From Ylistrum balloti (taxonomy: Eukaryota): a stretch of 64,000 nt of DNA. The position numbers are program-made. This document shows positions 24,001 to 27,000 of the stretch, piece by piece. The number at the start of each line of letters is the position of its first letter. The stretch's first letter is position 1. The stretch is from assembly GCF_031769215.1 (NCBI RefSeq), contig NW_026781940.1, positions 1 through 64,000 on the forward strand, in the 5' to 3' direction.

Positions 24001-27000
24001 CCTACCCTACATACGGAGCAACATACAAAACTCTTAATGATTTCTACCTTTCGCAGGTAATTCGGAAGGCCGTTCCATTTGCGGGATGCCTCTTACCTGA
24101 TAGAACTTTTTCTCTACCTGGATGTTCATTTTTTAAAAAAATTAGACTTTATATAAATCCATGATTAATATTATAAAAAGAACAAAAACTTCATGTAGAT
24201 TTTTGAAGATCAGCATTGCAATCATTAAAAACAATTTGAAAATCTCTTTTTTGCACTTTCTCAATTTTCTTGATGACCAAAATATCGCAAATACCGTGGT
24301 AATTAAAATTTAAAAGTCTACTGTCAGACTCTTCCATGTCCACTTATACACAACTTCTAATATTTGCAGAGATATTGATCTACCATGCAGGAAGCTGATA
24401 TTGTATTAAAACAATATTTGACGATAAAAATTACATTGACATGTGACATAGACCCTCCAGCCGATTATTTCTCTTAAGACCCGGAAGATCTATTTTTCCG
24501 TGTCCAAATTTAGAAAATAGCCATGTGACATTCAAGTAAAGATGGCAGCCTCCATGTGCAACGTGAGTGTTCTTCGTCGACAGTTGTTTTCATCGGTACA
24601 AAAGAAATCATGTTGTCATTATCATCTTGTAGGAAGACTTTGTTCAAGTATAGCAGAAAGAGACGACATTGATCATAAAGACAAAGAAGCAACATTCCAG
24701 TCCCGTGTGGCAGACGAAGACGACTATTTTGGTGTGTCGATTCCAGAAGACAGGTGGTCTGTACCTCGATCATCATCTCTCTCTGAAAAGGAATTATTCG
24801 AAAAATATCAGGCAGGTAGATTAAGCGAAAATGAAACATACAACATGCAATTTGTAAACTTGCGGTTTGGAAGGATGCGTTTCGATAACGTGACAGATTT
24901 AAAACATCAAAAAGATGCGAGGATGAAATTTCATGACTTAAATCAAGTTGGTGTGAAAAAAGATATTTTGAATACTATGGCACGTATTAACGACGGAAGA
25001 GAAACATCGTATTCGGAAGAAAGTTATTATGCTTCTCTTTTAGATCAGTTCAAAAGTGATTCGAAATATCGTGAGCCTTCTGTGGCGCAAGATTTAGTTT
25101 CAAAGAGATCTAGATCAAGGACACGTAAAGCAGGGAATGGAAAAGTTGATTCCCTTCAGGTGAGTAAATCAGGAGCGATGGACAATGTTGAAACTGATCA
25201 GGATGTGGAAGGAAAGACATCACCATATCATACTGCTACACCTACTACGGTTGAATATGGTGATGAAAAATTGACAGTTTCAAATGAAGCTAACGATGAA
25301 AGTTCTGATAGAAATAATGGTGATTTGAACTTTATAGATCAACAGTATTTTCAAGGAGATCTTGTTTCAAATGAGGAAATTAGCACCAAAGTTAAAGATA
25401 GTGATAGCTGTGATTTGAACTTCATAGATCAACAGTATTTTCAACAAGATACAGTATTAACAAAAGCTGAAAAATCAGCCGGGTTATTAAACTTTGAATC
25501 GTCACAAGGAAATCATCCTAATGAAGTTATACCAGAACTAGAACCAGATTTCTTGTTTTCTCATGCAAAGAAAGAAATATCTTCGGAAAAGAACAGAACA
25601 TTTTCCGATCAAGAAATTATATCTTCTAGTGTAGAAACAGTTTCTCATACTTATCCGAAAGATCATACAGAAAAGCTGCATCCAACTTCAAAGTCAAAAA
25701 CGATGAAAACCAAAGAAAACCCCAGAGCAAAGCCTGAGAAGATAAAAACTGAAAATTTTGACAGTGAAGTATTATCTTCCTACCAAGAGACTGCAATTTC
25801 AAACCCCGATCAGGTATCTGAGAGTGCAACTCCAAAGATTCAAAACTTGGAAACTGAAGGAGGCAGTACAAAAACAAGATCTAGCGATATTAATTTTATT
25901 GATCAACAGTTCTTTGGCGAGCACTTATCTGATGATGATTTGAAAACATCCATAAATAGCGAATTTTGGAATGATCAAGAATCAGATTTGAACTTTATAG
26001 ATGAAAAATATTTCAAGGAAGCTGAATCTACTCCTGAAAGGAAACCAATTGATTTGCTGACTCCAGACCATGAAGGGCCTGAAAATAAAGCGTCTGTAAG
26101 AGATGTAAAACATTCTGGTAAAGGAAAAAAATCTAAAAAAAGGGAAAAAGAACTTAATAGAACTGACATGGATAAGCGCAGTGATCGTCTTTTTCAATTT
26201 CAAGTTATGGATGACCTTGAAAGAGATAGCTTAATAAAAAGAAAACGTGCACTGTCCACAGGGAAGGAGAATGAGACTGAAAATTTGTCGAGCTCAGCTT
26301 ATGGCACAGTGCAGAAGCTACGAGGCAGTCAAGGAATTAATCTAGAAGGTAAACTTTTTTTATCATCTGTTCAATCTTTCAGTGGTAATTGGTTTTCAAG
26401 TATATTTTGAAATGATTAAAAGTAATTACATTTTTTGAAAAAAAAAAAGAAAAAAAAAAGCATGCAAATAAAATTGTATAAAAGTCTGGGGAAAAATACA
26501 TTTATCATAGAATCTTACCAGACTTTATTGATAAACTTTTTATTTGTTGTCTTTTCTGATGTATAGAGTTAATGTTTAATTAATAGATATTAATTAATGT
26601 CTTAATAAGTAACTAAGATGATGAAGTCTTCACAAAATTAAGACACTGTAAGATCATTATAGCAAGGTCAAAATGTATATTAAGTGCATGTGTAGTAATA
26701 TATGCATGACAGGCACATCTAGACCTGCACAAACCCTCAAGGCTAATGATGTTCCCTTATCTTCATTTCTTTGAAAAATGTGTCATTCAAGTTAAAAATT
26801 TATAGCATTTTCATCAAGTTTTTTTGAATTTCTTATCAATTAAAAAATCTCGAAAGTTAATCTGATGTGAAAAAAGAAATCATCTTTTTAGCACAATGTT
26901 ATTAGATTTTAGGCTATTCAGATCACCTTTCGTCCATGGCCCATGGTCTGTCATCTGTCGGTAAACAATTCTTGTTATCGCTTCTCAAGAATCGTCGAAC

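What the first reader, a model, noticed from the sequence alone, without database searches (positions are those of the whole stretch)
24542..26348. RPUSD4 with a ~600-aa single-exon N-terminal extension containing four D(L/I)NFID(Q/E)(Q/K)(Y/F)F motifs
Human RPUSD4 is about 377 aa (recalled). Here exon 1 alone encodes 602 codons: an Arg/Ser-rich targeting-like start, then an acidic, probably disordered region. A 10-aa motif recurs at residues 261, 291, 449 and 482 (nt 25322, 25412, 25886, 25985), arranged as two pairs 30 and 33 aa apart; the first pair is a visible DNA duplication. Conserved hydrophobic islands in disordered sequence suggest short linear interaction motifs, perhaps for partners in the mitochondrial RNA granule or mitoribosome assembly (inference).
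Basis: partly seen in the sequence, partly recalled or inferred. Interest (0 to 1): 0.65.

Follow-up and report, generated by a model that had tools for sequence, protein, structure and literature searches.

The report
Repeated motif ORF upstream of RPUSD4
A real 602-codon reading frame encoding a mostly disordered, acidic protein with four copies of a conserved ten-residue motif lies just upstream of a mitochondrial-type pseudouridine synthase gene, but whether the two are spliced into one protein remains open.

Summary
ATG 24542 opens 602 codons plus one base, ending at a GT at 26349. D[LI]NFID[QE][QK][YF]F occurs at residues 261, 291, 449 and 482 and nowhere else in the window. The motif stays 67-97% identical in DNA while its flanks have decayed to background. 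Four of its ten codon columns differ only synonymously, which argues for selection on the peptide. The downstream exons resemble RPUSD4: PF00849, best solved match 5UBA, HRLD catalytic motif. The 26348 to 27133 junction is in phase.

The fusion is not shown. The donor AAG|GTAAAC departs at +5 and +6 from all 7 other donors. The ORF's own stop is followed by ATTAAA and a 23-nt A-tract, like an mRNA 3' end. An in-frame ATG ORF with a basic start lies just before exon 2.

Exon 1 has no Pfam, PDB or Atlas relative. AlphaFold2, run without an alignment, calls residues 190-540 coil. I read the motifs as multivalent docking sites; the partner is unknown. Orthologues and RNA-seq could not be consulted.

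The parts
24542..26348 (+). Long coding ORF (602 codons + 1 nt); candidate first coding exon of the RPUSD4-like gene, or an independent intronless gene
   Evidence: The 629-aa stop-to-stop ORF sits in 34% G+C DNA, where random frames stay open about 16-17 codons on average. No Pfam, PDB or Atlas relative.
24542..24655 (+). Presequence-like N-terminus (aa 1-38): basic, Ser-rich, no acidic residue
   Evidence: 5 K+R and 0 D+E in the first 35 aa; first acidic residue at 39. No dedicated targeting predictor was available.
24785..24877 (+). Helical segment aa 82-112, the only part with pLDDT around 77
   Evidence: AlphaFold2, single sequence.
25130..26071 (+). Acidic, Ser/Thr-rich region (about aa 197-510), predicted coil, carrying the four motifs
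   Evidence: net charge -2 to -7 per 30 aa over most of it. (coil; 10-residue pLDDT means 29-41).
25322..25351 (+). Motif copy 1, DLNFIDQQYF (aa 261-270)
25412..25441 (+). Motif copy 2, DLNFIDQQYF (aa 291-300)
   Evidence: It is 29 of 30 nt identical to copy 1, and the one difference is synonymous.
25886..25915 (+). Motif copy 3, DINFIDQQFF (aa 449-458)
25985..26014 (+). Motif copy 4, DLNFIDEKYF (aa 482-491)
26165..26326 (+). Basic helical segment aa 542-595 at the end of the ORF (pLDDT 50-63)
26349..27132 (+). Proposed intron 1 (784 nt): donor AAG|gtaaac, acceptor tttttttcag|G; phase 1 on both sides
   Evidence: Its interior is CpG-poor (o/e 0-0.23).
26408..26459 (+). The ORF's own stop (TGA 26408-26410), ATTAAA (26415-26420) and an A-tract (26437-26459): an mRNA-3'-end-like arrangement
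   Evidence: 3 A-rich 22-mers in 64 kb on the + strand, and this is one of them.
26943..27054 (+). Candidate alternative or ancestral short first exon: ATG, 37 codons + 1 nt, basic N-terminus, donor CAG|gtattt, and a 78-nt in-frame intron to 27133
   Evidence: 73 codons open upstream of the acceptor; P about 0.013-0.026. There is a local CpG bump. Codon usage gives no support.
27133..27255 (+). RPUSD4-like exon 2
   Evidence: splice sites and phase. No PDB or Pfam hit on its own.
27968..28012 (+). RPUSD4-like exon 3
28202..28334 (+). RPUSD4-like exon 4 with the HRLD catalytic motif
   Evidence: PF00849, 28.7 bits against a cut-off of 26.8. (5uba_A, E 5.1e-6).
29044..29144 (+). RPUSD4-like exon 5
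   Evidence: PF00849, 25.3 bits, below the 26.8 cut-off for this piece alone..
30059..30108 (+). RPUSD4-like exon 6
32325..32463 (+). RPUSD4-like exon 7
33478..33575 (+). RPUSD4-like exon 8
35389..35583 (+). RPUSD4-like last exon, including the stop
   Evidence: 5uba_A, E 6.4e-11, chain residues 228-291 of 295..

Best explanation
The 602-codon ORF is a real protein-coding sequence. It encodes four parts in order:
- a presequence-like start (aa 1-38);
- a short helical part (about aa 80-190);
- an acidic, disordered stretch of about 310 aa with four copies of the acidic-aromatic motif D-[LI]-N-F-I-D-[QE]-[QK]-[YF]-F;
- a basic helical end (aa 542-595).

The most likely single model is that it serves as the first coding exon of the RPUSD4-type mitochondrial pseudouridine synthase gene that follows it. 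Joining 26348 to 27133 would give 602 + 294 = 896 codons by arithmetic; the exons were not joined.

In that model the four motifs are short linear docking sites. Each hydrophobic island (L/I, F, I, Y/F, F) would fold onto a pocket of a folded partner. Four copies in two pairs would give multivalent, avidity-based tethering of that partner, or of several copies of it, to the enzyme. The likely setting is assembly of the large mitoribosomal subunit.

Shown: the ORF, the motif and its constraint relative to its flanks, the RPUSD4 nature of the downstream exons, and the phase-compatible splice sites. Inferred: use of the junction, import into mitochondria, disorder, binding, and the partner's identity.
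For: The ORF and motif are confirmed at the stated coordinates.

Motif statistics:
- Expected count from composition is 2.6e-9.
- Only the 6 motif pairs exceed the maximum of 20 shuffles.

Constraint:
- The motif is 67-97% identical in DNA across the 6 pairs, while the 45-nt flanks are 0.22-0.44 identical (background 0.29 +/- 0.07).
- 6 of 10 residues are invariant in all 4 copies.
- 4 codon columns (N, F, I, last F) differ only synonymously.
- The 4 varying columns change conservatively (L/I, Q/E, Q/K, Y/F).

Disorder: 530 of 602 residues have pLDDT below 50, and all four motifs lie in predicted coil. The composition is acidic.

Downstream gene:
- PF00849 in 2 of 8 exon-bearing ORF pieces.
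- 5UBA (human RPUSD4) is the best of 7 PDB hits for exon 4 and the only hit for the last exon.
- HRLDKDTTG aligns with the human catalytic motif.

Junction and transcription unit:
- AAG|gtaaac and a strong acceptor are both in phase 1, and all later exons keep phase.
- AGGTAA occurs once in the ORF, at this donor.
- The presequence-like start fits a mitochondrial enzyme (human RPUSD4 is mitochondrial, PMC5377769, abstract and passages).
- CpG o/e is 0.8-1.6 at 24350-25250, then depleted continuously through the proposed intron 1 and the RPUSD4 body. This is what a single transcription unit starting near 24500 would give.
- A 35-nt satellite fills 19139-23874, so no other upstream exon is close.

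Precedent: in Trypanosoma brucei the N-terminal domain of RPUSD4 reaches out and binds two assembly factors, mt-LAF7 and mt-LAF8 (PMC7957421, passages).
Against: Against use of the junction:
- The donor has a at +5 and c at +6, whereas 7 of 7 other donors of the gene have g and t there.
- Read unspliced, the ORF stops 20 codons later. It is then followed within 5 nt by ATTAAA and, 17 nt after that, by a 23-nt A-tract. That tract is one of only 3 such A-rich 22-mers on this strand of the window. The arrangement resembles an mRNA 3' end or a retrocopy tail.
- The frame of exon 2 stays open 73 codons upstream of its acceptor (P about 0.013-0.026). That stretch contains an ATG at 26943, a basic N-terminus, an in-frame donor at 27054 and a small CpG bump. 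RPUSD4 could therefore start there. A second ATG, at 26936, followed by TCG|gtaaac, is also in phase.

Against the functional reading:
- No relative of exon 1 was found in Pfam, PDB or the Atlas, so conservation in orthologues is untested.
- The AlphaFold2 run had no alignment (1 sequence, mean pLDDT 40), so 'disordered' is weakly supported.
- No partner is known.
- Acidic segments this long behind a presequence are unusual for matrix proteins (own knowledge).
Confidence: 0.45

Rival explanations
1. The long ORF is an independent, intronless gene, possibly a processed retrocopy, lying 0.5 kb upstream of RPUSD4. Its mRNA reads through the GT at 26349, stops at TGA 26408-26410 and is polyadenylated near 26437. 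RPUSD4 has its own short first exon (ATG 26943 to 27054, or ATG 26936 to 26960) and no long extension. The motif protein would then be a separate, probably mitochondrial, disordered protein.
For: - ATTAAA at 26415 and an A-tract at 26437-26459 lie directly after the ORF's stop. There are only 3 A-rich 22-mers and 12 runs of 10 or more A in 64 kb.
- The ORF is an uninterrupted 1.9 kb, whereas the 8 RPUSD4-like exons are 45-195 nt.
- The donor is atypical at +5 and +6, against 7 of 7 other donors.
- 73 codons are open upstream of exon 2, with an ATG and a basic start.
- The short first-exon model adds up to 37 + 294 = 331 codons.
Against: - An in-phase AAG|GTAAAC donor 60 nt before the ORF's stop, the only AGGTAA in the ORF, would be a coincidence of roughly 1 in 10 (my estimate).
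- No target-site duplication beyond chance: two 9-mers shared between the flanks, about what is expected.
- The 26300-26900 gap has CpG o/e 0-0.23, like the introns, with no promoter-like CpG island for RPUSD4. The bump at 26750-27200 is only 0.65-0.84, which is exon-like.
- Codon usage does not separate 26943-27053 from open intronic segments (P 0.3-0.6, a low-power test).
- The 3' UTR would be only about 27 nt.
Confidence: 0.35
2. Chimeric origin. A retrocopy of another gene landed upstream of RPUSD4 and has since been captured as a new first exon through the GTAAAC donor near its 3' end. The old short first exon (26943-27054) survives as a relic or as an alternative start. This is a sub-case of the best explanation as regards present function, with a different history.
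For: It accounts at once for the in-phase donor, the poly(A)-like relic and the leftover in-frame ATG ORF upstream of exon 2.
Against: No parent gene could be looked for. No target-site duplication was found. All three supporting features were noticed after the fact, and each could be chance at the 1-5% level.
Confidence: 0.2
3. The motifs are not docking sites for a separate partner. They are aromatic 'stickers' that make the protein self-associate or partition into mitochondrial RNA granules, or they pair with each other to form a small folded unit.
For: There are four aromatic islands spaced by acidic, low-complexity linkers, arranged in pairs. Human RPUSD4 is an RNA-granule component (PMC5377769, abstract).
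Against: - AlphaFold2 shows no packing or secondary structure at the motifs (single sequence).
- Strict conservation of polar positions (D1, N3, D6 invariant) suggests a specific binding pocket more than generic stickiness.
- A strongly acidic chain is a poor RNA co-condensate (own knowledge).
Confidence: 0.12
4. The repeats are neutral leftovers of recent internal duplications and have no function.
For: The first pair still shows a 54-nt, 85% DNA repeat.
Against: - The flanks of all copies are at or near background, while the 10 residues are 60-100% identical.
- There are 12 synonymous against 12 conservative codon differences over the 6 pairs.
- The non-motif remainder of the units is no more alike than shuffled sequence.
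Confidence: 0.04

Closest known systems
Human RPUSD4 (mitochondrial RluA-family pseudouridine synthase; PDB 5UBA)
   Same: Exon 4 and the last exon align best, or only, to 5UBA (E 5.1e-6 and 6.4e-11). The HRLD catalytic motif is present, and PF00849 is matched. The human enzyme is a mitochondrial RNA-granule component needed for 16S rRNA stability and large-subunit biogenesis (PMC5377769, abstract and passages).
   Different: They have no counterpart in any solved chain or Pfam family. Whether they belong to the same protein is unproven.
Trypanosoma brucei RPUSD4 in the pre-mtLSU assembly intermediate
   Same: It is an RPUSD4 whose N-terminal part acts as a scaffold. It extends about 80 A from the catalytic body and binds the assembly factors mt-LAF7 and mt-LAF8 (PMC7957421, passages). 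This is a precedent for an N-terminal, partner-binding appendage on this enzyme.
   Different: There the appendage is a folded domain seen in cryo-EM. Here it would be a long disordered chain with repeated short motifs. No sequence relation was tested, because that protein was not in hand.
Short linear motifs (SLiMs) repeated in disordered regions
   Same: About 10 residues; a hydrophobic/aromatic core in an acidic, predicted-disordered context; conserved against decayed flanks; several copies.
   Different: No matching published motif was found. A full-text search for six motif strings returned 0 papers. By recall only, the spacing does not fit the FFAT, PIP-box, clathrin-box or MTR4 arch-interaction consensus patterns. 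No binding domain is known.
Processed retrocopies and chimeric retrogenes
   Same: An intronless ORF followed by a polyadenylation hexamer and an A-tract, next to a gene with many small exons.
   Different: No target-site duplication, and no parent gene could be looked for. The 3' UTR would be only about 27 nt.

Membership tests
RluA-family pseudouridine synthase, RPUSD4 type (downstream exons 27133-35583) | PseudoU_synth_2 (PF00849) catalytic domain | tested here: met
   The search was done exon by exon. The exon-4 piece scores 28.7 bits (cut-off 26.8) and the exon-5 piece 25.3 bits (below the cut-off on its own). The other 6 of 8 pieces have no PF00849 hit. No whole-protein score was obtained, because the exons were not joined.
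RluA-family pseudouridine synthase, RPUSD4 type (downstream exons 27133-35583) | Catalytic Asp in the HRLD motif | tested here: met
   HRLDKDTTGVM aligns with HRLDKETTGVM of 5uba_A.
RluA-family pseudouridine synthase, RPUSD4 type (downstream exons 27133-35583) | Closer to RPUSD4 than to other RluA members | tested here: met
   For exon 4, 5uba_A has E 5.1e-6 against RluC/RluD at 0.026-0.12 (7 hits). For the last exon, 5uba_A is the only hit (E 6.4e-11). A reciprocal search in a eukaryotic proteome was not possible.
RluA-family pseudouridine synthase, RPUSD4 type (downstream exons 27133-35583) | Mitochondrial targeting | tested here: inconclusive
   Both candidate N-termini are basic and nearly free of acidic residues: ATG 24542 has 5 K+R and 0 D+E in its first 35 aa; ATG 26943 has 5 K+R and 1 D+E. 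No targeting predictor or experiment was available.
Long ORF as exon 1 of that gene | Splice junction 26348|27133 used in mRNA | not testable with these tools
   Only phase and consensus could be checked. Both sides are in phase 1, the acceptor is strong, and the donor AAG|gtaaac is atypical at +5 and +6. No transcript data were available.
Short linear motif in a disordered region | Lies in intrinsically disordered sequence | tested here: inconclusive
   AlphaFold2 gives coil with 10-residue pLDDT means of 29-41 around all four copies, but it ran on a single sequence. The composition is acidic and Ser-rich.
Short linear motif in a disordered region | Conserved relative to its flanks | tested here: met
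   Tested among the four paralogous copies only. The motif is 60-100% identical in protein while the flanks are 7-20% identical, and there are synonymous-only differences in 4 codon columns. Orthologues were not testable.
Short linear motif in a disordered region | Binds a defined globular partner | not tested
Processed retrocopy | Intronless copy with a polyadenylation signal and poly(A) remnant | tested here: met
   The ORF is uninterrupted for 1.9 kb. ATTAAA lies at 26415 and the A-tract at 26437-26459.
Processed retrocopy | Flanking target-site duplication | tested here: not met
   Only two 9-mers are shared between 23875-24560 and 26440-26540. Neither abuts the A-tract, and the number is about what chance gives.
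Processed retrocopy | Intron-bearing parent gene elsewhere in the genome | not testable with these tools
   Only this window of the genome is available.

The most novel reading that the evidence does not exclude
A retroposed gene for a mitochondrially targeted, disordered acidic protein carrying four copies of a previously undescribed docking motif (D-L/I-N-F-I-D-x-x-Y/F-F) has been captured as a new first exon by RPUSD4. This would turn the 16S-rRNA pseudouridine synthase into a multivalent scaffold for mitoribosome-assembly partners. The old short first exon (26943-27054) and the retrocopy's poly(A) relic (26437-26459) would still be visible as traces of the event.
Probability: 0.2. Interest if true: 0.6.

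Novelty: new variant of a known kind. Interest (0 to 1): 0.38.

Why it matters
RPUSD4 is essential for mitochondrial large-subunit biogenesis in human cells (PMC5377769). In trypanosomes it acts as a structural scaffold as much as an enzyme (PMC7957421).

An animal lineage in which the enzyme carries a long disordered arm with four constrained docking motifs would offer a natural handle for finding what RPUSD4 recruits during mitoribosome assembly. The motif peptides could serve directly as baits.

If the ORF is instead a separate gene, it defines a new, probably mitochondrial, disordered protein with a repeated motif of unknown partner, and possibly a snapshot of gene birth or fusion by retroposition.

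Either way this is a modest, lineage-specific finding until orthologues and transcripts are examined.

Tried and rejected
Searches for relatives of exon 1, all empty:
- Pfam gave only a sub-threshold Crystallin match (E 0.11, 13.1 bits against a cut-off of 23.2).
- PDB sequences gave 0 hits at E up to 10.
- The ESM Atlas on the whole ORF gave a best score of 0.76, a plant cluster, below the level the tool calls a lead. Residues 60-200 gave no usable hit.

Other searches:
- Antisense ORFs over the region (154, 84 and 82 aa) and the 73-aa stretch upstream of exon 2 had no Pfam hit at E up to 1.
- An Rfam gathering scan of the window found 0 families.
- Literature: six motif strings, 0 papers. 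RPUSD4 plus 'mollus', 0 papers. RPUSD4 plus 'N-terminal extension', 14 papers; of the two I opened, neither describes such an extension in animals.
- A recalled resemblance to the C-terminal aromatic motif of neugrin could not be checked. A text search with two short recalled strings and the name Rrg9 gave nothing relevant, so I dropped the lead.

Tests that gave no answer:
- Codon-usage scoring of the alternative first exon was uninformative (P 0.3-0.6, low power).
- BLAST of 26860-27132, 24300-24541 and 26349-26900 against the window found no repeated element, only two short low-complexity matches.
- No fold search was run, because the only model has mean pLDDT 40.

Patterns compared by eye from memory and rejected on spacing: FFAT, PIP-box, clathrin-box and arch-interaction motifs. 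No tool test was made.

Not run:
- The second structure job.
- The complex job: no partner sequence was in hand, and the catalytic domain would have required joining exons.
- The genome-contig scan, because that collection holds only bacteria and archaea.

As a result, no orthologue of either the ORF or the RPUSD4 exons was examined.
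Full report
**Scope.** The window has no N and is 33.9% G+C. I do not take it for human. The pieces that match human RPUSD4 do so only as distant relatives, roughly half the residues in the printed alignments. The surroundings are AT-rich satellite-bearing DNA. There is therefore no whole-protein family score, no whole-protein fold, and no test of contacts between the extension and the catalytic domain.

**The observation.**
- The + strand frame is open from 24521 to 26410, 629 aa.
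- The first ATG is at 24542, in a gtaaagATGg context.
- From the ATG to 26348 is 1807 nt, which is 602 codons plus one base, and gtaaac follows.
- D[LI]NFID[QE][QK][YF]F occurs at residues 261, 291, 449 and 482 (nt 25322, 25412, 25886, 25985). The pairs are 30 and 33 residues apart.
- These are the only four hits in the six frames of the window, for the strict pattern and for a relaxed one.
- From the ORF's own composition, 2.6e-9 hits are expected.
- In an exhaustive 12-residue self-comparison, only the six pairs among the four copies (46-58) exceed the maximum of 20 shuffles (36). The next best pair scores 30.
- The first pair shares a 54-nt DNA repeat at 85% identity, with the motif itself 29 of 30.

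**Is the motif under constraint?** Within this one sequence, yes.
- Across the six pairs, the 30-nt motif is 67-97% identical.
- The 45 nt on either side are 0.22-0.44 identical, against an in-frame background of 0.29 +/- 0.07. Only the first pair's flanks (0.44 and 0.40) reach the 95th-99th percentile.
- Six of ten residues (D1, N3, F4, I5, D6, F10) are invariant.
- Four codon columns differ only synonymously (AAC/AAT, TTT/TTC, ATA/ATT, TTT/TTC).
- The four variable columns change conservatively (L/I, Q/E, Q/K, Y/F).

This is the pattern of old duplications in which only the ten residues have been held. It does not replace a comparison with orthologues, which the closed protein and contig collections made impossible.

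**What the ORF encodes.**
- The first 38 residues have 5 K+R and no acidic residue, like a presequence.
- The whole product has 109 D+E against 87 K+R and is 12.1% Ser. Residues about 197-510 are net acidic in nearly every 30-residue window.
- Basic patches lie at about 181-210 and 511-555.
- AlphaFold2 without an alignment gives mean pLDDT 40. 530 of 602 residues are below 50 and 24 are at 70-90.
- Helices are predicted at 82-112 (about 77) and 542-595 (50-63). Residues 190-540, including all four motifs, are coil at 29-41.
- Exon 1 has no Pfam family at E up to 1 other than a sub-threshold chance-level match. It has no PDB sequence relative at E up to 10 and no Atlas look-alike.
- The antisense ORFs have no family.

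**The downstream gene.** Eight further exons with consistent phases and good splice sites run from 27133 to the stop at 35581-35583.
- Searched separately, the exon-4 piece matches PF00849 above its cut-off and the exon-5 piece just below it. The other six pieces are too short to score.
- The exon-4 piece finds human RPUSD4 (5uba_A, E 5.1e-6) ahead of RluC and RluD, with the HRLD catalytic motif aligned.
- The last exon finds only 5uba_A (E 6.4e-11, chain residues 228-291 of 295).
- Exon 2 finds nothing.

The RPUSD4 assignment for these exons is sound. By arithmetic they hold 294 codons.

**Is the long ORF exon 1 of that gene?** This is the weak point.

In favour:
- The donor AAG|gtaaac is the only AGGTAA in the ORF.
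- It is in phase 1, as is the strong acceptor tttttttcag|G at 27133.
- The start is presequence-like, which fits a mitochondrial enzyme (PMC5377769).
- CpG o/e is 0.8-1.6 at 24350-25250 and then stays depleted through the proposed intron (0-0.23) and the RPUSD4 body. This is what one transcription unit would give.
- A 35-nt satellite of 139 copies ends 668 nt before the ATG, so no other upstream exon is near.

Against:
- All 7 other donors of the gene have g at +5 and t at +6. This one has a and c.
- Read unspliced, the ORF stops at 26408-26410. ATTAAA follows at 26415 and a 23-nt A-tract at 26437-26459. That tract is one of only three such A-rich 22-mers on this strand of the window. This is the layout of an mRNA 3' end or of a retrocopy's tail, although no target-site duplication was found.
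- The frame of exon 2 stays open for 73 codons upstream of its acceptor (P about 0.013-0.026 for random positions). In it lies an ATG at 26943 with a basic, nearly acid-free 37-residue start. A donor CAG|gtattt at 27054 would remove a 78-nt in-frame intron.
- That segment is unique in the window and sits on a small CpG bump.
- Codon usage neither supports nor excludes this short exon.
- A second ATG at 26936, followed by TCG|gtaaac, is also in phase.

I put about even odds on the junction being used. A combined reading, in which a retrocopy was captured as a new first exon, explains all three oddities. It rests on features noticed after the fact.

**Mechanism.** I commit to the following, at 0.45 overall. 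The ORF is the first coding exon of the RPUSD4-like gene. Its motifs are multivalent short linear docking sites in a disordered arm. Each binds, through its L/I-F-I...Y/F-F face framed by the invariant D, N and D, to a pocket on a folded partner.

The partner is unknown. By analogy with the scaffold role of the N-terminal domain of trypanosome RPUSD4, which binds mt-LAF7 and mt-LAF8 (PMC7957421, passages), a factor of large-subunit assembly is the first guess. Human RPUSD4's role in 16S rRNA stability and in RNA granules points the same way (PMC5377769).

The ORF, the motif, its constraint and the enzyme family are shown. Splicing, import, disorder, binding and the partner are inferred.

**Comparison and novelty.** The catalytic part is an ordinary RPUSD4. 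The arm and its motif match nothing I could reach. Full-text searches for the motif strings, for RPUSD4 with 'N-terminal extension' (14 papers; passages read in two of them) and for RPUSD4 with 'mollus' turned up no description.

Supplementary files of papers were not consulted. I rate it a new variant of a known kind, of moderate interest.

Noticed in passing
window 29109-29866: A 58-nt tandem array of 13 copies begins inside RPUSD4-like exon 5 (29044-29144). It repeats the exon's last ~36 nt together with its donor AGG|GTGAGT into intron 5. Five later copies keep an AGGTRAGT donor consensus. Reading past the first donor meets a stop at 29183.
   Followed up: partly
window 25157-25165 and 25571: A perfect donor consensus, CAG|GTGAGT, lies inside the long ORF (last exon base 25159, phase 0). 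It is one of only two such 9-mers in the window. An acceptor-like site at 25571 is 411 nt (137 codons) downstream and in frame. Splicing there would remove motif pair 1. It may be an alternatively spliced internal intron, or chance.
   Followed up: partly
window 26408-26459: The stop of the unspliced ORF is followed by ATTAAA and an A-tract (G A11 G A10 G), an arrangement like an mRNA 3' end or a retrocopy tail.
   Followed up: yes
window 26913-27132: The frame of exon 2 is open for 73 codons upstream of its acceptor. It contains ATGs at 26936 and 26943 and phase-compatible donors at 26960 and 27054.
   Followed up: yes
window 19139-23874: An A-rich 35-nt satellite of 139 copies with 89% matches ends 668 nt before the ATG of the long ORF.
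   Followed up: partly
window 24435-24449 and 24517-24531: A 15-nt direct repeat (13 of 15) containing CATGTGACAT occurs twice just upstream of the ATG. It may be a promoter-proximal element. Not tested.
   Followed up: no
window 42336-43206: A 48-nt tandem array of 13 copies (42491-43106) stays open in two + strand frames for 207-285 aa. A partial fn3 match lies at its 5' side, below the cut-off by 0.1 bit.
   Followed up: partly
window 60970-61338 (-) and 61594-62592 (+): A PIG-L (GlcNAc-PI de-N-acetylase) exon lies on the minus strand (E 3.9e-9). Diverging from it is a 332-aa open, acidic, Pro/Glu/Thr-rich frame with no Pfam family.
   Followed up: no
window 30950-31400: An isolated G+C-rich patch (0.46-0.47, 10-11 CpG per 300 nt) lies inside RPUSD4-like intron 6, with short ORFs on both strands. 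It may be an inserted element.
   Followed up: no
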